Shown: positions 1 to 51,069 of the stretch, piece by piece
Numbering within the stretch: position 1 is the stretch's first letter
Layout: each line of letters begins with the position of its first letter
Source: Rhynchobatus australiae
Lineage: Eukaryota
NCBI GenBank assembly: GCA_034780895.1
Contig: JAUZTB010000098.1
Span: forward strand, 78,660,508 to 78,724,507
Reading direction: 5' to 3'
Length of the DNA stretch: 64,000 bases
Made by a program: the position numbers and the translations under genes
The notes under the pieces: model-generated
The model's database searches: none
Told to the model about the DNA's origin: nothing
What the model saw: only the letters and a program-made list of their open reading frames with translations

Positions 1-660
1 AGGAAAAGGGGAAGCCCAAGATATAGGGGGGGGCGGAAACAGAGCAGTGATGGGTAGACAAAAGAGGAGAGGCGGGGTGGGCACAAGGTGGTGATAGGTA
101 GATGCATGTAAGAGATAATGATAGGCAGGTGAAGGGGAGAACAGATTTACGGGGGGATGGGCCAAAGGTATGGGGAGAGGAAAAAGAGAGACGAAAAAAA
201 TGGTGAGGAGGGAAAAGAGGGGCTAGGAAAGGGAAGAAAAGAAGATGCGTGGGGGAAGGGCTGGTTTACTTAAAATGGAGAATTCGATGTTCATTCCATT
301 CAGCTGTAAGGTCCCAAGATAGAAAATGAGGTGTTGTTCCTCCAGTTCGTATTTGGATTTCTCCTGGCATTGGAGGAGGCCGAGGACTGACATATCAGTG
401 ATGGAATGGGAGAGGGAGTTGAAGTGACTTTCAAAAGTGAAATGCAGATCATGGTTATGGACACAACTTAGGTGTTCTACAAAACGGTCACCTAGTCTGC
501 GTTTGGTCTCGTCAATGTAGAGGAGGCCACACTTGGAGCACCGAATGCAGTAGGTGATATGAGGGGAGGTGCAAATAAATCTCTGCCTCACCTGAAAGGA
601 CTGTTTGGGTCCCAAGATGGAGGTGATTGAAGTGGTGTAGGGACAGGTGTTAGAGTTTGC
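1..660 (-). mobile_element. Penelope-like element (PLE) 3' fragment with GIY-YIG endonuclease, truncated by window edge
   Basis: ORF 223-723(-) has YCIRCSKCGLLYIDETKRRLGDRFVEH...HFNSLSH...LEEQHLIFYLGTLQLNGMN, the CCHH/GIY-YIG signature of PLEs. Bases 1-30 match the reverse complement of 44810-44840. Confidence 0.9.
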
Positions 661-7499: not shown

Positions 7500-7830
7500 A
7501 ACAGGAAAGATTCAACAGGTTAGACATCTGCAGAGAGAGAAACAGAGTTAACACTTCAGGTCAATGACTTCACCAGAACTGGAATAGGGAAAAGGCAAAT
7601 GTACGTTAAGTTGCAGAGCGGGAGCTAGGGGAAGAAGTTGGAGAGAAAATATCTGTGATTGGGTGAAAACCAAGGTTATCCAAGTGACATGATGCTGTCT
7701 AGTTAATAGATGAAAGAAGGGAGGAAACCCAGAAGAACATGCTGAAATAGTGAGATTGCTTAAAATATGAAACAAAAGTGAATTCTGGAAATATTTAGCA
7801 GATCGAGCAGCTTCTGTGGTGAGAGAAAAA
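7500..7830 (-). mobile_element. Old non-autonomous PLE-derived repeat(s) with hammerhead-like relic
   Basis: Reverse complement of 7546-7580 reads AGTT-CTGGTGA-AGTCATTGACCT-GAAG-TGTT-AACT; flanks resemble the pLTR motif family at 40345 and 43490. Confidence 0.6.
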
Positions 7831-32395: not shown

Positions 32396-32640
32396 GGTTT
32401 CTTCTGAGGTATCCACCCCCTGAGCAAGCACTGGACCTGCTTGTTAAATGCAACAAAGCCTACGGGGAGGCAGCATGGTTACTTTACTGTCGTCAGCAAT
32501 GGTTGTCTTGCTAAAGTAATGTTGGATTTGGGAACCTGAGCTTGATTTATTCAAATTTCACATAAAAATTTTCAAGACTGAGTAACAGTGAAAATCAGTA
32601 ATTTAAATTTCAGATCAGAATATTTGACATGCAATGAACA

Positions 32641-32866
32641 AACAAAAAACAAACTGATGGAGGAACTCAGGGGGTCAGGCAGTATCTGTCGAAGGAAACG
32701 GACAGCCAACGTATTGGGTTGAGACCCTTTACCAGATGAAATGGCTCAACCCGAAGCGTCGACTGTCTATTTCCCTCCACGGATCACAGATGCTGCCTGA
32801 CCCACTGAGTTCTCCAGCAGTGTGTTTTTTGCTCCAGATTCCGGCATCTGCAATCTCTTGTGTCTC
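32641..32866. mobile_element. Palindromic non-autonomous PLE-derived element (two inverted pLTR arms)
   Basis: Left arm ggaggaactcagggggtcaggcagtatctg...gggttgagaccct is complementary to right arm ...caacccgaagcgtcgactgtc...cagatgctgcctgacccactgagttctccag. Confidence 0.8.
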
Positions 32867-33759
32867 CAATGAACAAACGATGTTGCTTCAACAAAACACT
32901 TTGACTAAGCTCATGTGTGAGACAAAAATTAACCAAGATTTTATGAATAATGTATTGATTAAGGTCAGGATTCATTGCAAGTAATTTATTGATTAGGACT
33001 AAACTTTCAGTTTGCTTTGTATGGCTTCTTTCTCTGGAGAAATGCATGTTAATGATGACTTGAATCCTACTGAGGAGTACCTATGTTCCCAGTAATTATT
33101 CCCATAAAAGGATTTGTGGATGGGAGCACATCTAGCTCAGGGCATTATTGTCCCATCACCATCCATGGAATTTGGCTCATTCATCAGAACCATAGAAAAA
33201 GAGCAATAGAAGGCCAACCTGGGCCCTTGTGCTGTTCAATAAGATCGTGGCTGATCTTCTCTCATTTTCTGCCATATCCCCGTGTTGATTCTATCAACTT
33301 CTACTTGAAGTGCATTTGATCACTGCACTTTCACAGGTAGTGAATTCCAAGGACTCATCAATCTCTGTCTGAGGAAATCTCTCCTCGTTTCTGTTTTACC
33401 ATTCATTTTGGAACTGTTTGGTTAAGACCAGGATTGTGCTGTGATTTGACCTTCATATTCAACAGCCAGATAGCATTTTACAGTGGCTCAACACGATTAA
33501 AGAAACCCATCAAACACATTGACAACATCACCAGGCTAACAGTTCCCTCCAGGCTATTTAAATCAAGCATGCCAGAATTCAGGCACACAATGCCTCCCAT
33601 AACACTGGATATCCTGTTTGCAGGAATGTTAAAGGGATTTCTTTGGACAAGGTGTTACATGTAGTTGAAATTCGGATCTAAGATAAGAAATTTGGATCTA
33701 AAATAATCCTCAATAGAGTTGAATTAAATTAATGCTAACTTTGGCTGTAACAAGGATTA

Positions 33760-39785: not shown

Positions 39786-41990
39786 TGCTGGGTTTGAGGT
39801 CTTGATCTTTGAACATACTTTTCCTCAGTTGGACGAAGACTGATGTCTCCATTCACTGAGAGATGAACCCCGAAGTTTGGAAGCTAATGCAGGTTTCAAC
39901 ATCCCCAGCATTGTCATCCACAGGCCTAACACCATACCCTGGAAACAGATACAGTAAGAGATTGTTAGAATGACAGAGGAAATTATCTAGGAATATTGTC
40001 AAAGTTTCCCTTTCAAAAAAAGGTTAACACCTCAATCGACCCCTGGGAATCCCAAATCAACATAGAGAAGGATGGCACTGGAATTCTCGAGTTCCTTTGT
40101 TGGGAGTCCTATGTAAATGACAGATAGAGCAATCCACCTCCCAAGCAATCCACCTATCTGCCCTGCACTGTCACATCTGTGGCAGAGCCCACAGTGGTCT
40201 CAACCCACAGAACCAGAGTGGAAACAAGTCGTGCGCGATCCCGAGGGTCTACCTTGGTAGAAAGATTCACATACTTTTCTCCAGTTTGTACAGACCTAGC
40301 TATTTCAAATTATGTTGGGAGAAAAAAAACCTGCTTTTGCTGGAAAGCTGAAATAAAAATAGAAAATGCTGGAAACATTCAGCAGATCAGGCAACATCTG
40401 TGGAGAGAGAAGCCGAGTTAATGTTTCAGGTCAATGACCTTACATCAATAAAAAGATATGGGTTTACTTTTTTGCAAGAAAGATTGTTTTCTGCAAAGCA
40501 ATAACATCTCCACCTCTCTGTGTCTGACACTGATGAGAAAATGAAAAGGTAGTTCTTGAAATCCCAGACTCCTTCCTGCCAGAGGATTTGATGTGAAGAT
40601 AAATTATTTTCAGCATTTTCTGTCAACAAGAGTTTTAAAGTAATATAAAGGTCTGAAAATTCAATTGCATGGTGCAACATATGTATATGTGTTTTTTTTC
40701 CTCTGGGACTTCTGTGCTTATGATGCTCTAATGCAAGGACCTTGGACATGGACAATGGCATGAGATGGGACTTTCATTGATGTGTGTGCGGTCACTCGTC
40801 CAGGAACTTGCCTTTACAGAGCATGTGATACCTCTTTGGCATTACTTAAAGTGGACCTGCACTTGGACCTGACTCCAGTGTGCTTTCAGTAAAAAAAATC
40901 TTCACACTTGAGCAGCTGTCCTTCAGGCCTGTTAACCCATTCCTCCCATCCCTGATTGCAACTCAACCCCTTAACAACTGATCACACCCCGTCACCGCAC
41001 TTCTCCGCGGCAACCAATCGTGATCTCAAAGTCACATCCATCTTCAGTCCTTGCTAGCCCCGCTCCACTGCAACCCCATTTCCTTCAAGACAAGTTCTCA
41101 GTCTTCCTCATGACTTCCTCAGTCTTGCTCCACAGAGGAAAGACCTTGGAGCACGGTAAGTGTACACAATCTTTTCAATTGCACATGATGTCTGGGGCCT
41201 TGTACACATCGAATTTTGCAGTGACAGGCCCTTAAAGAGACCAGCTGTCGATCCACTGTGAACAGCATGTTTAATGGTTCTTACTAAGTGTTAAAGAACT
41301 TCCAGGCTGTGAATTCAATTCCCATCAGAATTTACAGTCTACTGAAAACATTTATATAGTACAATGATTGTAATTATTATGGTGGTGATATCAGATTTTT
41401 ACAATGGGAATCCTTAAGATATTAAAGGCAATTTGTCAAAACGACCAGTGTAATGGAAATTTCCAAATGATAATTTTAAAAATAATAAAGAATGTTTAGA
41501 ATAAAAGGTGTTTTGTTTGCTGAATGCCTGCATTAATTGAACATTACCATGACCAACATTTTACATGGGAGGCAATAAACATGAACGGTGGATTGACGAA
41601 TGTGACTTAATTATATAAAATGTGTTGTTATTTAACTTTGTGATACATTCAGACACAGCCAATAATCTTAATAATTTATGAGCCCATTTGTTGAGTTTCT
41701 AAGGAGGCAGATATCATGGCAAATGTTTGAGAAACATTGATTTCAGAGTTCAGTTCTACTGGTCAGTCGCTGAATCCTCATCAGATGTGTCTCATTCCTG
41801 TTCTTTTTAGAAGGTCCCTCAGCATCATGAATGACTTGCTTCCACTCTGGTTTTGAGGATTCTGAGGTGACTGATGAGCCTTACCACTAGGCAGTCACAT
41901 CAGAAGGGAAGATTCAACCATGTGCAAAGGATGTGCCTCCGTGACAAAGATGCAACATCCCCACCGACTCCTGGAAACTTCTGGTCCATG

Positions 41991-42800
41991 ACTACACTCA
42001 GCACTGTCCACGTTCTACACCCAATTCTGACCGTGTTCTACACCCAGTGCTGACCACGTTCTACACCCAGTGCTGACCACATTCTACAGCCAGTGCTGAC
42101 CATGTTCTATATCCAGTGCTAACCAAGGTCTACACCCAGTGCTGACCACATTCTACACCCAATTCTGACTGTGTTCTACACCCAGTGCTGACCACGTTCT
42201 ACAGCCAGTGCTGACCACAGTCTACACCCAGTGCTGACCACGTCCAACACCTAGTGCTGACCACAGTCTACGCCCAGTGCTGACCATGTTCTACACCCAC
42301 TGCTGACCATGTTCTACACCCACTGCTGTCCACATTCTACAGCCAGTGCTGACCATATCCTACAGCCAGTGCTGACCACGTCCTACACCCAGTGCTGACC
42401 ACGTTCTACACTTGGTACTGACCATGTTCTACACCCGGTGGTGACCATGTTCTACACCCAGTGCTGATCGTGTTCTATACCCATTGCTGACCACGTTCCA
42501 CACCCAGTGCTGACCGCGTTCTACACCTATTGCTGACCACTTTCTACACCCAGTGCTGACCACGTCCTACATCCAGTGCTGACCACAGTCTACACCCAGT
42601 GCTGATCGTGTTCTATACCCATTGCTGACCATTTTCTACACCCAGTGTTGACCATATTCAATCCCCCAGTGCTGACCACAGTCTACACCCAGTGCTGACC
42701 GTGTTCTATACCCCGAGTTGACCACATTCTACAGCCAGTGCTGACCATGCTCTACAGCCAGTGCTGACCATGTTCTACAGCCAGTGTTGACTAAGGTCCA
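41991..42800. repeat. 23-bp minisatellite, ~35 copies, consensus TTCTACACCCAGTGCTGACCACG
   Basis: Head-to-tail repeats with scattered substitutions and no spacers, directly visible. Confidence 0.97.
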
Positions 42801-43489
42801 CAGCCTGTCCTGGACCTGCCTCACTATTATGCACCAACAAACACATGTAATCCAGCAAATCCTAATCTGGAGTCTCTGCACTTGCTCTGCATTCACGTTC
42901 CCTTGTTTCTCTAATGTGTTATCAACAATGAAACCCACCAAATGCTGATCTTAATCCTTAGCTGTGTTGAAACCAACAGCATTCACTAAAAGAACAACAA
43001 ATGACATTTTTCATTGTTCTTGCATGAACGATATGAACCAATCCAAATGGTATCTTCCTGATGTGATACTTTGTCAAGAAAGAATGCTTACTTTAAATTT
43101 ATCCATTTGCTTTCGATTAGCTCTCCCTCTAGATGGCAGGCTGATTTTGCTCACCTTTAGAACAGACAAAGATAGCCAGATGCTGCAACTGTTAGTGGAT
43201 GGCTAGTTTCTAGACTGCCATTGGATAGACTGACAATGAGAAGACAACATCAATGCAACGAACATAACACAGAGATCAGCCTTCTGCTTGTGGCCCAGAG
43301 GCATGCAATGCTTGGCAAGTGTACTGAAAGTAGATAGGGGATTACATCTTTGAAGAGGCTGTGTGTATTCGCATTTCAAAGGAGTATAACTAATTCAAAC
43401 ATTTTCTTTGTGGATTTGTTCAGTATCAGAGAACTGAAAGCAGATGTTAGAATAGGAAGGAACCTGACAGAATGAAAAAGAAATTCATA

Positions 43490-43765
43490 AACTGCAGATG
43501 CTGGAAATCTGACATAGCAACATAAAATGCTGTAAACGCTCAGCTGGTCAGGCAGGATCTGTGGAAAGGGAAATAGTTAAGGCTTCTAATCTGACATACA
43601 TCATCAGAAATGGGAAAGAGAGAATACCAAGTTAGTTTTGATGCAGGGTTCCAACCCGAACTGTTGACAATTCCTTTCCTCCCGCTGATGCTGCTCGGCC
43701 TGCTGAGTTGCTCCAGAACGTTGTTTGTTGCTCTGGATTCCCGCGTCTGCAGGGTCTTGGGTCTC
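43490..43765. mobile_element. Inverted pair of PLE pLTR-derived arms
   Basis: ctgcagatgctggaaatctg...ctcagctggtcaggcaggatc faces gatgctgctcggcctgctgagttg...ctggattcccgcgtctgcag; hammerhead relic TTGATGC-AGGG-ttccaa-CCC-GAAC at ~43638-43665. Confidence 0.7.
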
Positions 43766-44228
43766 TCAAGTAAGTTTTCAGCAGGAGAGAAGGTCGGGGG
43801 GAAGGGAGGGATGGGTAGAACAAAAGGAATATCTCTGAAAGGGTGAGATCAAATGTTTTTCTCCCTTTCCCAAACTGGCCTCAATCGCCACCTCAGAACT
43901 CAAACTGAAACTATAGTGGAAGCAAGTAACACTCAATCTCAAAAGATGAGGGCAGTTACCAGCACCTTAGTTGCGTTGTTTGTGTAATGTGTTGTAAATG
44001 GTGAGGCTGTGAACATGCTCATCAGGCCAGACTACAAACAGAATAAGAAAAACTGAGCCAACGTGATAACAGACAGGAATGGCCAGTTCTGATACAGACA
44101 GAAAAAGTGAGGTACCTAAAGTTGGAGAATTCAACATTGTTTTTCTCCCTTTCCCAAACTGGCCTCAATCGCCACCTCAGAACTCAAACTGAAACTATAG
44201 TAGAAGCAAGTAACACGCAATCTCAAAA

Positions 44229-44975
44229 GATGAAAAAAACACCATGATGTTGGAGGAACTCAGCAGGCCGGGCAGCATCCGTGGAGAAAAGCAGCCGGTC
44301 AATGTCTTGGGTCAGGACCCTTCTTCAGGACTGAAGATAGGAAAAAGGGGACGAGGTGACAATTTTGCAGAACACCTGCGCTCTGTCTGTAACTGCAATC
44401 TGCATCTCCCCGTTGCCAGTCACTTCAACTCCCCACCCCACACTATCACTGATATGACAGTCCTCGGCCTCTTCCACTGCCAGAAGAATTCCAACAGCAA
44501 AAAAGTGGAGGAACAGCACCTCACTTTCCACCTTGGAACCTTGCAGCCTAACGGCATGAATATTGAATTCTCCCACTTTAGGTAATCCTCACTCCTCCCT
44601 TACACACAACCCCCCCTCCTCTTCTTCCCTTTCCTGGACATTTTGTTCCTCTCTCTCCTTACCTTTAACCTATCCCCCGGTGATCTGCTCTCCCCTCCTC
44701 CCCCGCACCTGCCTCTCACTATCTCTTACCTGCATCCACTTATCACACATTGTGCCCCCTCCCACCGCCTCCCCTCTTTCGTCCACCCATCACTACTCTG
44801 CTTTTCCCTCCTATATATTGGGCTTCCCCCTTTTCCTATCTTCAGTCCTGAAGGAGGGTCCTGACCCGAAGCGTTGACCGGCTGCTTTTCTCCACGGATG
44901 CTGCCTGGCCTGCTGAGTTCCTCCAGCATCATCGTGTTTTTCATCTAGATTCCCACATCTGCAGTCCTGTGTTTC
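44229..44975 (+). mobile_element. Penelope element: inverted 5' pLTR piece + GIY-YIG C-terminus + 3' pLTR
   Basis: ORF 44244-44585 has GDNFAEHLRSV...VASHFNSPPH...EEQHLTFHLGTLQPNGMNIEF. 44229-44351 is the reverse complement of 44825-44945 (~120 bp inverted repeat). Confidence 0.92.
44843..44880 (+). ncRNA. Minimal type I hammerhead ribozyme relic in PLE pLTR (second copy 44296-44333, -)
   Basis: CAGTC-CTGAAGG-A-GGG(tcctga)CCC-GAAG-CGTT-GACCG. The inverted copy reads CAGTC-CTGAAGA-A-GGG(tcctga)CCC-AAGA-CATT-GACCG. The two copies carry different mutations and together restore CUGANGA/GAAA. Confidence 0.7.
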
Positions 44976-45509
44976 TCCAGCCAGTCGAGTCTGTTCTGCC
45001 ATTGAATGAAATCACTGCTGATCTGCAGTTTAACCCACTCGCACTTCATTCTTTGAGCTCAACAAAAGTATAATTACCTTAGATTGGGTGTTTTCAATTG
45101 ACTGATTTTTGTGGGAGGGAATGTTCCAGCTTCTCACAGACCTTTGACACCAAGTAACGGGTTGGAATGGGTTTATTATCGTCACATGTACTGAGATACA
45201 GTGAAACGCTTTTGTCTGCGTGCCATCCAGACAGATCATTCCATACATCAGTACATCCAGGTAGTACAAAGAAAACAGAATGCAGAACTTGCATTGCACA
45301 GAAACAGGCCCTTTCGCGCATCGAGTCCGTGCTGACCATCAACCACTCATTCACACCAATTCCATTGTATTCTCCCCACATTCCCGTCAACTCCCCCCAG
45401 GACGCCCCAGGATAAAGGGCCTCGATCTGAAACATTGACTGTCCATTTCCCTCCACAGATGCTGCCAGACCCGTTGAGTTCCTCCAGCATCTCGTACATT
45501 GCTCCAGAT

Positions 45510-45841: not shown

Positions 45842-46020
45842 NNNNNNNNNNNNNNNNNNNNNNNNNNNNNNNNNNNNNNNNNNNNNNNNNNNNNNNNNNN
45901 NNNNNNNNNNNNNNNNNNNNNNNNNNNNNNNNNNNNNNNNNTTTGTGTAGGATGTGGGTAAGTCTGGGTTTAGAACATGGTCATGAGTAAATATAGAATC
46001 TAGCCAGCAAGTTGATTTAA

Positions 46021-46255
46021 GACAGAGACACAAGACACTGCAGATGCTGGAATCTGGAGCAACACACAAGATGATGGAAGAACTCAGCAGGTCAGGCTGC
46101 ACCTATGGAGGGAAAAGGATAGTCAGCATTTTGGGTTGAGACCCTTCATCTGGACTCATTATCAGTCGAGATGAAGGGTCTTGACCCAAAACATTCTTTT
46201 TCCCATAGATGCCGCAAGACCTGCTGAGTTTGTCCAGCATCTTGTGTGTTGAGTT
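46021..46255. mobile_element. Palindromic non-autonomous PLE-derived element with back-to-back hammerhead relics
   Basis: ttttgggttgagacccttcatctggact[cattatc]agtcgagatgaagggtcttgacccaaaa forms the inverted-repeat centre; arms extend ~90 bp on each side. Confidence 0.82.
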
Positions 46256-47225
46256 GGTCCAAGACATTGTATTTGAATCCTTTTTGAATGCTGTTTTCAC
46301 CCCTTCACTAATCCTCTCTTAACTGTATTTGTATGACTTTGTAATGTTCTTGATGCTTTAATTCCCACAAGGCCAGCAGCAACATCAAAGTGAAACTGAT
46401 GGACAGAGCACCTTGGAAAAAGACTAATGCAGCAGAAGGTGAGAATTTAAAGGAACTATTGCTGGTGGTTGCTTTAGAACGTGTGGTGGAACATGGGGAC
46501 AAATCATAAAGTGGACAAGAACACACTAAGCAGCTTCATGGAGTCACCTCTGCAACAGATGGAACAGTAAAGAGGAGGGTGTTCTGACTTTCCTATTCAT
46601 TTTGAAAAATATCTCACAGAGACACTACGGCAACAAGGTCAACAAGCTGATCTAANNNNNNNNNNNNNNNNNNNNNNNNNNNNNNNNNNNNNNNNNNNNN
46701 NNNNNNNNNNNNNNNNNNNNNNNNNNNNNNNNNNNNNNNNNNNNNNNNNNNNNNNNNNNNNNNNNNNNNNNNNNNNNNNNNNNNNNNNNNNNNNNNNNNN
46801 NNNNNNNNNNNNNNNNNNNNNNNNNNNNNNNNNNNNNNNNNNNNNNNNNNNNNNNNNNNNNNNNNNNNNNNNNNNNNNNNNNNNNNNNNNNNNNNNNNNN
46901 NNNNNNNNNNNNNNNNNNNNNNNNNNNNNNNNNNNNNNNNNNNNNNNNNNNNNNNNNNNNNNNNNNNNNNNNNNNNNNNNNNNNNNNNNNNNNNNNNNNN
47001 NNNNNNNNNNNNNNNNNNNNNNNNNNNNNNNNNNNNNNNNNNNNNNNNNNNNNNNNNNNNNNNNNNNNNNNNNNNNNNNNNNNNNNNNNNNNNNNNNNNN
47101 NNNNNNNNNNNNNNNNNNNNNNNNNNNNNNNNNNNNNNNNNNNNNNNNNNNNNNNNNNNNNNNNNNNNNNNNNNNNNNNNNNNNNNNNNNNNNNNNNNNN
47201 NNNNNNNNNNNNNNNNNNNNNNNNN

Positions 47226-50199: not shown

Positions 50200-50400
50200 C
50201 ACTCAGCAACATATGAACCTAATTGGACCCCTGTCCATCAATTTCAAGTTGTCACTTCAATTTACCAGTTCACTCCCACTTTGCCCTATCTGTCTCTGCA
50301 CTGTTCACTGTCCTTGGCCCAACGTGAGCTTGAGGAACAAAACCTCATCATCCATCTGGGCATGATGCAGCCTTCGAGTCTCAATATTGAATTCAACTAA
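50200..50400 (+). mobile_element. Highly degenerate Penelope GIY-YIG fragment
   Basis: cttgaggaacaaaacctcatcatccatctgggcatgatgcagcct...aatattgaattc reads LEEQNLIIHLG.MQP...NIEF. Confidence 0.7.
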
Positions 50401-51069
50401 CTATTTTACGTGAGTCCTGAACTGATTCCTAACTATTTCAGGATAAGTACATGGAGGTTCGGAGGGATATGGGCCAAACGCGGGCAAGTGGGACTACCTT
50501 GGTGGGCAATGTGGAGCCAAAGAGCCTGTTTCCAATCCGTATTACACAATGTCTCTATGACTCACTTTTTCTCTTTTTATCAGAACTGGCCATTTCTACT
50601 GTTAATATTTTGTTTTTGCAGCATATTAAAAAGCGCAAAAAAACAAAAAGTTTTCCTTCTGTCTGTGCAGGCACTGCTTGATCTGCTGGACATTTCCCGC
50701 ACTCTCTTTTGATTTCAGATTTCAGCAATAGCACTGACTGCATCTCACAGCATTATATGTCCCTTTGCATTTTTTAAATCTCTCTCCATCTACCCACATT
50801 AAACAATTAACCAAGCAGCTTGAAAAACATTGGGATCACTTTGGCCACCCTCGACTCACCCTAACAGAGATATTCCCTTTGTCCCATCCATCCTTCCCCC
50901 ATCTTCTCTGCAGCTTAAAACTTACTTGTTTTCTCACTTTCCCAGTTACAATAAAAGGTCCTGAACCCAAAACATTAACTCTCTTACCACAGAACCTGCC
51001 TGACCTCATGGGTGTTTTCAGCAGCTTCTGTTATTATGCCTAAACACTGTTTACTGGTCCTCTGCCACC

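What the first reader, a model, noticed from the sequence alone, without database searches (positions are those of the whole stretch)
46021..46255. Small palindromic, non-coding element made of two back-to-back hammerhead-bearing pLTR arms
Seen: a ~235-bp hairpin element with no ORF. Its centre is two divergent hammerhead-like motifs 7 nt apart: AGTC-CAGATGA-A-GGG(tctcaa)CCC-AAAA-TGCT-GACT on - (46121-46156) and AGTC-GAGATGA-A-GGG(tcttga)CCC-AAAA-CATT on + (from 46164). The same architecture recurs at 32641-32866 and 43490-43765, with single arms near 7546, 40415, 45415 and 50945. Inference: this looks like an abundant non-autonomous, MITE-shaped retroelement family mobilised by Penelope RT/endonuclease (retrozyme-like), with a ribozyme motif on both strands. 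The core appears as CAGAUGA rather than CUGAUGA in several copies, which may be a family-level core variant.
Basis: partly seen in the sequence, partly recalled or inferred. Interest (0 to 1): 0.7.

Follow-up and report, generated by a model that had tools for sequence, protein, structure and literature searches.

The report
Head-to-head Penelope stub, variant hammerhead
This hairpin is an old, decayed stub of a known kind of jumping gene (a Penelope-like element), one of likely tens of thousands in a shark- or ray-like genome, each probably built afresh at insertion rather than copied as a unit; its odd ribozyme letter is real and shared by a whole protein-coding lineage, but whether that variant cuts RNA is untested.

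Summary
The hairpin is real: 227 bp (46025-46251) between a decayed 15-bp target duplication. Its arms are the hammerhead-bearing end (pLTR) of an endonuclease-coding Penelope-like element, one arm 35 bp longer (the known "tail"). It is not a MITE-like unit or a retrozyme: outer ends are fixed, but 41 both-arm loci have 40 different centres, duplications vary from 8 to 17 bp (41 of 80 hairpins against 4 of 600 controls), every lineage makes such hairpins, and the two arms share their source variants. In 12 of 33 unselected hairpins each arm holds sequence the other lacks, which favours two priming events on RNA. Arms often begin at the first bases of the hammerhead, preceded by an extra G, likely the RNA 5' end. 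CAGAUGA (U4A) is a true lineage variant (66 of 100 copies; carried by endonuclease-linked copies); a sister lineage has CUGAUGC. Both motifs at this locus are broken. The architecture is published (PMC3846280, PMC8557442, PMC4209133) and this scan found it before in many other genomes; I did not find U4A in print, but one key paper was unavailable.

The parts
46010..46024 (.). Left target-site duplication (15 bp)
   Evidence: 12 of 15 identical to 46252-46266, all three differences transitions; 6 of 2000 random flanks as good
46025..46156 (-). Long pLTR arm (132 bp), CAGAUGA lineage; 3' end of the insertion
   Evidence: profile columns 2-133; family end at 46024-46026 in DNA contigs
46025..46059 (-). 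35-bp 'tail', present on the long arm only
   Evidence: short arm pairs only to 46060; arm ends cluster at profile columns ~100 and ~133
46121..46156 (-). Decayed minimal type I hammerhead: U4A core, stems I and II intact, G12 and the cleavage triplet mutated
   Evidence: sequence, alignment with other lineages
46157..46163 (.). Copy-specific 7-nt centre; a G precedes the long arm, native T-C precede the short arm
   Evidence: centres differ among 41 loci
46164..46251 (+). Short inverted pLTR arm (88 bp) with hammerhead remnant: C3G, U4A, G12A and a 9-nt deletion that removes the cut site and 3' strand of stem I
46252..46266 (.). Right target-site duplication (15 bp)
32632..32878 (+). Second hairpin of the same lineage, perfect 12-bp duplication, junction inside the hammerhead of the short arm
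44235..44976 (+). Longer insertion of a canonical-core lineage: inverted short arm, GIY-YIG C-terminus (44352-44585), untranslated stretch, long arm
43640..43766 (+). Solo arm (CUGAUGC lineage) with its own 12-bp duplication, nested in an older element on the minus strand (arm 43489-43611)
45411..45509 (+). Solo short arm, decayed
40325..40447 (-). Solo arm, older lineage
50941..51031 (+). Arm of older lineage with upstream untranslated stretch

Best explanation
The element is a single old insertion of two head-to-head pLTR copies of an endonuclease-coding Penelope-like retrotransposon, likely made by two priming events on one template RNA and joined in the middle, not a unit that moves as a hairpin. 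Shown: arm identity, link to a GIY-YIG/RT frame, long-plus-short geometry, variable duplications, copy-specific centres, shared source variants. Inferred: the enzyme nicks both target strands 8-17 bp apart; one end primes at the outer site (column ~133), the other at the inner site (~100); both cDNAs run towards the RNA 5' end; when the pLTR copy at the front of the transcript is used they stop after about 100 and 133 nt at the first base of hammerhead stem I (likely the capped start); end joining with filler or 3-4 nt microhomology fuses them. The CAGAUGA core arose in a protein-coding source lineage that then amplified widely, so efficient self-cleavage by this motif was probably not needed for spreading. 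This copy is inert.
For: Arm follows a GIY-YIG-type frame in 22 of 30 loci listed and in 27 of 30 loci; a longer frame matches shark and ray proteins with PF26215, and others with PF01541 or PF00078. Duplications in 41 of 80 hairpins against 4 of 600 shuffled pairs, 8-17 bp. 33 of 36 unselected back-to-back pairs are long plus short. 40 different centres at 41 loci, 10 at 10 loci in the sister lineage. Arms of one hairpin agree at six non-CpG source variants (p 0.0005-0.004) and not at CpG sites; own-arm distance 0.169 against 0.203 between short arms. Short arm reaches at least 15 nt further 5' than the long arm in 12 of 33, the reverse in 3 of 33. 27 of 66 arms start in columns 1-6; about 57 of the first 100 exact CAGAUGA copies break within 2 nt of the start (read by eye); the untemplated base before the start is G in 40 of 67 (p 9e-6 against one third). 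In vitro, an anole PLE protein cuts and extends both strands, starts at two internal sites that bound the tail, and does not need hammerhead cleavage (PMC11167929).
Against: No RNA data: the start site and cap are inferred from junctions only; an RT that prefers to add C, or exonuclease trimming to the base of stem I, would look alike. In D. virilis Penelope the start lies about 120 nt upstream and an intron ends at helix I (PMC2377424, PMC4209133), and the pyrimidine tract plus CAG here also looks like a splice acceptor. 39 of 80 hairpins had no duplication above threshold, this locus among them under the strict score. The G count pools script and by-eye counts. Three columns (14, 65, 109) differ between short and endonuclease-linked copies at p<0.01 of 134 tested. 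In run X1 a contig matches 46164-46552 exactly but has 1,506 unexplained bases before it; not resolved.
Confidence: 0.8

Rival explanations
1. The hairpin is a discrete non-autonomous (MITE-shaped or retrozyme-like) family copied as a whole by the Penelope enzyme.
For: Fixed outer ends, high copy number, own duplications. Two junction types recur: 14 loci with a GACT overlap and about 18 of 100 with a GAC overlap. pLTRs alone can mobilise sequence in trans (PMC3846280).
Against: Centres differ. Recurring junctions occur in both orientations (4 vs 5 and 7 vs 6 of those classifiable), with both core types and mixed variants, as expected from microhomology. Short arms are closer to their own long arm than to each other. 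No head-to-tail array.
Confidence: 0.06
2. Each hairpin arises at insertion by self-priming (fold-back) of one cDNA or of an antisense template, as proposed for rotifer Penelopes.
For: Published proposal for head-to-head palindromes (PMC3846280); microhomology junctions and arm-derived filler; arms share source variants.
Against: In 12 of 33 hairpins the short arm holds 5' sequence that the long arm lacks while the long arm holds the tail, so neither can be a copy of the other; the inner end matches the end of solo copies.
Confidence: 0.12
3. Solo arms and hairpin arms carry an internal promoter and act as sources of new short insertions (a Penelope-dependent SINE-like cycle), each new hairpin getting a new centre.
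For: Sharp start at an initiator-like TCAGT/CCAGT with extra G; Penelope promoters are internal in Drosophila (PMC2377424); short copies are very abundant.
Against: Variant spectra of 86 abrupt-start and 46 upstream-bearing copies match at the source-variant columns; no lineage private to short copies was seen. It is compatible with, not exclusive of, the best explanation.
Confidence: 0.15
4. Junctions record hammerhead cleavage of the template RNA in vivo.
For: 14 loci have one arm starting at the cut site.
Against: That junction is a 4-nt microhomology forced by stem I; it is no more common than the 3-nt overlap at column 22; canonical cores are not enriched in it (2 of 14 against 11 of 100, p 0.66); only about 3 of 100 other junctions fall at the cut site (by eye).
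Confidence: 0.08

Closest known systems
Insertions of endonuclease-positive Penelope-like elements with inverted 5'-truncated pLTR, 30-40 bp tail and TSD (PMC3846280 passages; PMC8557442 passages)
   Same: Head-to-head pLTRs, tail on one arm only, 8-10 bp TSDs in rotifer, GIY-YIG frame upstream of the pLTR
   Different: Here the body is often reduced to nothing, and such stubs hold about 28% of all arms (68-72 of 242)
Minimal hammerheads (min-HHR) of metazoan PLE pLTRs (PMC4209133, results and discussion read)
   Same: Short stem I, extra base between 9 and 10.1, palindromic helix III, high variation within a genome; dual motifs 100-700 bp apart on opposite strands already noted
   Different: U4A and CUGAUGC cores; the variants named in the text read are U3-A8 and the D. 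virilis form
PAc (Poseidon of Anolis) in vitro reaction (PMC11167929, main text read)
   Same: Two internal RT starts bounding the tail, both strands cut and extended, hammerhead at the ORF start and dispensable in vitro
   Different: Head-to-head products were not described in the parts read; the element here has a CxxxCxxC linker as in Neptune/Nematis
Animal non-LTR retrozymes (bioRxiv 10.64898/2026.07.22.740005, introduction, methods and passages read)
   Same: Non-coding, PLE-derived, type I hammerhead
   Different: Retrozymes are head-to-tail repeats with two same-strand motifs; this is head-to-head with one motif per strand
Twin priming of LINE-1 inversions (recalled, not read)
   Same: Second nick primes internally, giving an inverted 5' part and microhomology junctions
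   Different: Here both primings copy the same stretch from two fixed sites, giving a palindrome

Membership tests
EN+ Penelope-like element insertion | pLTR downstream of an RT + GIY-YIG frame | tested here: met
   Pfam alone was weak (PF01541 E 0.054; none)
EN+ Penelope-like element insertion | Inverted 5'-truncated pLTR at the 5' end | tested here: met
   44235-44976 and 36 unselected pairs
EN+ Penelope-like element insertion | 30-40 bp tail on one end only | tested here: met
   33 of 36 pairs long plus short; 35 bp here
EN+ Penelope-like element insertion | Short variable TSD | tested here: met
   41 of 80 against 4 of 600; 8-17 bp
Neptune/Nematis clade | CX2-5CxxC linker before the endonuclease | tested here: met
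   motif seen in frames of L257 and L270; definition from PMC8557442
Neptune/Nematis clade | Placement in an RT tree | not tested
   no reference RTs in hand
Minimal type I hammerhead | Stems I and II around the core, supported by covariation | tested here: met
   stem I AGUC/GACU in lineages A-C, AGUU/AACU in lineage D; fold of intact copies. Rfam gave no match
Minimal type I hammerhead | Conserved core CUGANGA...GAAA...UH | tested here: not met
   U4A in the lineage; G12A and other changes in both arms at this locus
Minimal type I hammerhead | Self-cleavage (as dimer or protein-assisted) | not testable with these tools
   needs an assay
Non-LTR retrozyme | Head-to-tail repeat with two same-strand hammerheads | tested here: not met
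   head-to-head; same-strand neighbours under 100 bp apart are rare (4 of 63)
Non-LTR retrozyme | Circular RNA | not testable with these tools
   no RNA holder listed
MITE-like discrete unit (definition recalled) | Uniform length and internal sequence | tested here: not met
MITE-like discrete unit (definition recalled) | Fixed-length TSD and symmetric terminal repeats | tested here: not met
   8-17 bp TSDs, asymmetric ends

The most novel reading that the evidence does not exclude
Two protein-coding Penelope lineages in this elasmobranch spread to tens of thousands of copies with altered hammerhead cores (CAGAUGA, CUGAUGC-A) while keeping stems I and II, so either these are active natural core variants or the fold serves the element as a 5' cap-proximal protein-binding structure rather than as scissors; and the hairpins are a genome-wide record of two-site twin priming on the front pLTR of a capped transcript that begins at the first base of the ribozyme.
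Probability: 0.4. Interest if true: 0.55.

Novelty: new member of a known kind. Interest (0 to 1): 0.32.

Why it matters
How Penelope-like elements build their inverted repeats and tails, and what their hammerheads do, are stated open questions (PMC8557442, PMC11167929). The stubs give counts that favour two primings on RNA over fold-back, point to the RNA start, and supply natural core variants that can be assayed next to canonical sister sequences differing at one base. For annotation, they explain why such stubs look like MITEs and are not. The locus itself is inert.

Tried and rejected
Rfam scan of the window: no match at E up to 1. Pfam on the 77-aa piece: none; on longer frames one weak GIY-YIG match. 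RNA runs: no RNA holder listed; three DNA contig sets were laid, which cannot show expression; the left flank had next to no cover there. MITE/discrete unit: rejected. Host-exon splicing onto the CAG acceptor as the source of the sharp 5' end: disfavoured, A two places before the G in 7 of 113 against roughly a third expected from the recalled exon-end consensus. Cut-site peak: not supported; one search was biased by its first letter and was used only as a lead. Selection on the core after insertion: none seen, 408 of 440 against 1192 of 1314, p 0.21. Gene conversion between arms: no concordance at CpG sites. Separate short-copy lineage: not seen. The first 30 loci are biased towards the query and were left out; duplicates of the window and of two loci were dropped before counts; 38 of 118 hairpins were left out of the duplication test for N, short flanks or ends outside the range. 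Paper searches for U4A and for twin priming in PLEs found nothing specific; Lunse et al. on PLE hammerhead variants was not held, and figures and supplements of the other papers were not seen, so U4A may be in print. Earlier-findings look-up by sequence was empty.

Full report
Observation. The stretch folds into one long hairpin (-133.7 kcal/mol, z -11.7). The two motifs and the 7-nt centre are as quoted. The insertion is 46025-46251, bounded by AGTTGATTTAAGACA and AGTTGGTCCAAGACA (12 of 15; 6 of 2000 random flanks as good). The minus-strand arm is 132 bp, the plus-strand arm 88 bp with a 9-nt deletion; the extra 35 bp lie at the outer end.

What the arms are. At 44235-44976 the same two arms enclose a 77-aa frame and a pyrimidine-rich stretch. 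That frame has 35,740 first-look candidates in the genome; 22 of 30 fetched loci are listed with an arm behind it, mostly 250-440 bp away. A longer frame with GIY-YIG and CCHH-like residues matches proteins of sharks and rays carrying PF26215, and invertebrate ones with PF01541 or PF00078. RT-like and CxxxCxxC linker motifs appear upstream. The arms are therefore pLTR ends of an endonuclease-positive Penelope-like element, likely Neptune-type; the host is likely an elasmobranch.

Abundance. In 120 stretches of 10 kb taken at fixed steps (986,644 non-N bases) a profile found 239-242 arms and none in the reversed control. 34 minus-plus neighbours lie under 100 bp apart against 3 plus-minus and 4 same-strand; a more sensitive pass gave 36, of which 33 are long plus short. 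Extrapolated, that is some 400,000 arms and 60,000-80,000 hairpins; 5 of the 33 have both arms starting at the hammerhead as here.

Not a mobilised unit. An exact both-arm pattern gave 41 loci with 40 different centres of 2-30 nt; the repeated one is 2 nt long, and 1-3 hold native upstream sequence. The sister lineage gave 10 centres at 10 loci. Junctions in unselected pairs run from 118 nt inside the arms to 500 nt into the body. Duplications were found in 41 of 80 testable hairpins against 4 of 600 shuffled pairs, 8-17 bp long. Two junctions recur through 3-4 nt microhomology, but in both orientations and with mixed variants. Within the CAGAUGA-type lineage the two arms agree at non-CpG source variants (columns 7, 54, 87, 88, 89, 95; p 0.0005-0.004) and not at CpG sites; all 11 unselected hairpins with both arms classifiable had arms of one lineage. 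Short copies and endonuclease-linked copies share those variants.

Mechanism. Arm ends cluster at columns ~100 and ~133, in hairpins and solo copies alike, the spacing of the two RT start sites that bound the tail in the anole element, whose protein cuts and extends both target strands and is predicted to be a dimer (PMC11167929, parts 1-2 of 4 read). In 12 of 33 unselected hairpins the short arm reaches at least 15 nt further 5' than the long arm, while the long arm alone has the tail; neither can be a copy of the other, which counts against the fold-back model proposed in PMC3846280 (passages) and for two primings on RNA (inference). 5' ends pile up at the start of stem I: 27 of 66 arms in columns 1-6, and about 57 of the first 100 exact copies break within 2 nt of it, 36 keep the upstream stretch and 7 keep part (by eye). 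The untemplated base before the start is G in 40 of 67 cases (p 9e-6), as expected if a cap is copied; the site reads like an initiator (recalled consensus). So the stub likely comes from priming on the pLTR at the front of the transcript. This is inferred from DNA only; in D. virilis an intron ends at this position (PMC4209133; PMC2377424 passages).

The core variant. U4 is A in 23 of 129 unselected arms, tied to one downstream signature. With that signature the first 100 of 2,437 exact matches read A 66, T 30, C 2, G 2. Of 27 endonuclease-linked loci of this lineage 17 read CAGATGA exactly and most others are decayed forms of it, so the variant sat in protein-coding sources. A second lineage has C at position 9 (27 of 28; 18 of 29 exact in selected loci, 4 with an endonuclease frame upstream). 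Stem I covaries between lineages, so the fold was kept over long times. Among fully intact 35-nt motifs (155 in the genome) the first 100 read T 65, A 35, so canonical cores dominate the best-kept copies. After insertion the core decays like its flanks (p 0.21); lineage divergence is 8-18% at non-CpG sites. Both motifs at this locus have lost G12, and a transcript through the whole element would pair each with its complement. Core changes usually cut activity sharply, though a U4C variant supports viroid infectivity (PMC3088659, passages and section 8). A cut-site signature was sought and not found beyond stem I microhomology.

Age. Contigs of two other coded organisms cover the short arm with its right flank at about 92-97% identity, so the insertion is probably older than their split. 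One contig of the closest run matches 46164-46552 exactly but has 1,506 other bases before it; this is unresolved.

Comparison. Inverted truncated pLTR, one-sided tail and TSD are described as typical of PLEs (PMC8557442 passages; PMC3846280); opposite-strand min-HHR pairs were noted in PMC4209133. Retrozymes are tandem (bioRxiv 10.64898/2026.07.22.740005, part 1 and passages). This scan has 88 notes in at least 16 genomes with these words and three on this family in this genome; none named CAGAUGA. Searches did not show U4A in a PLE, and 54 did not show twin priming applied to PLEs, but PMC5785218 was not held and figures and supplements were not seen.

Verdict. Real, ordinary in kind, with two modest additions: lineage-level non-canonical hammerhead cores in protein-coding PLEs, and counts that favour two-site priming up to the RNA start. 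Interest 0.32.

Noticed in passing
window 43640-43766; L326-L355: A second lineage has the core CUGAUGC-A (C at position 9 in 27 of 28 unselected arms), also forms hairpins and is linked to an endonuclease frame in 4 of 29 loci.
   Followed up: partly
window 43854-43949 and 44138-44233: 96-bp direct duplication (98%) whose second copy ends at the 5' edge of the 44235-44976 insertion, which shows no clear target duplication; possibly a rearrangement at insertion.
   Followed up: no
window 41992-42791: 23-bp minisatellite, about 35 copies, 80% matches; 45946-46009, next to the finding, resembles it in reverse (72%).
   Followed up: no
   Followed up: partly
L181-L215 centres: Many centres hold short copies of nearby arm sequence, and CC before AGT is commoner than the native TC, as in templated end joining.
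   Followed up: no
window 277-504 and 50296-50394: Further GIY-YIG fragments of the same superfamily.
   Followed up: no
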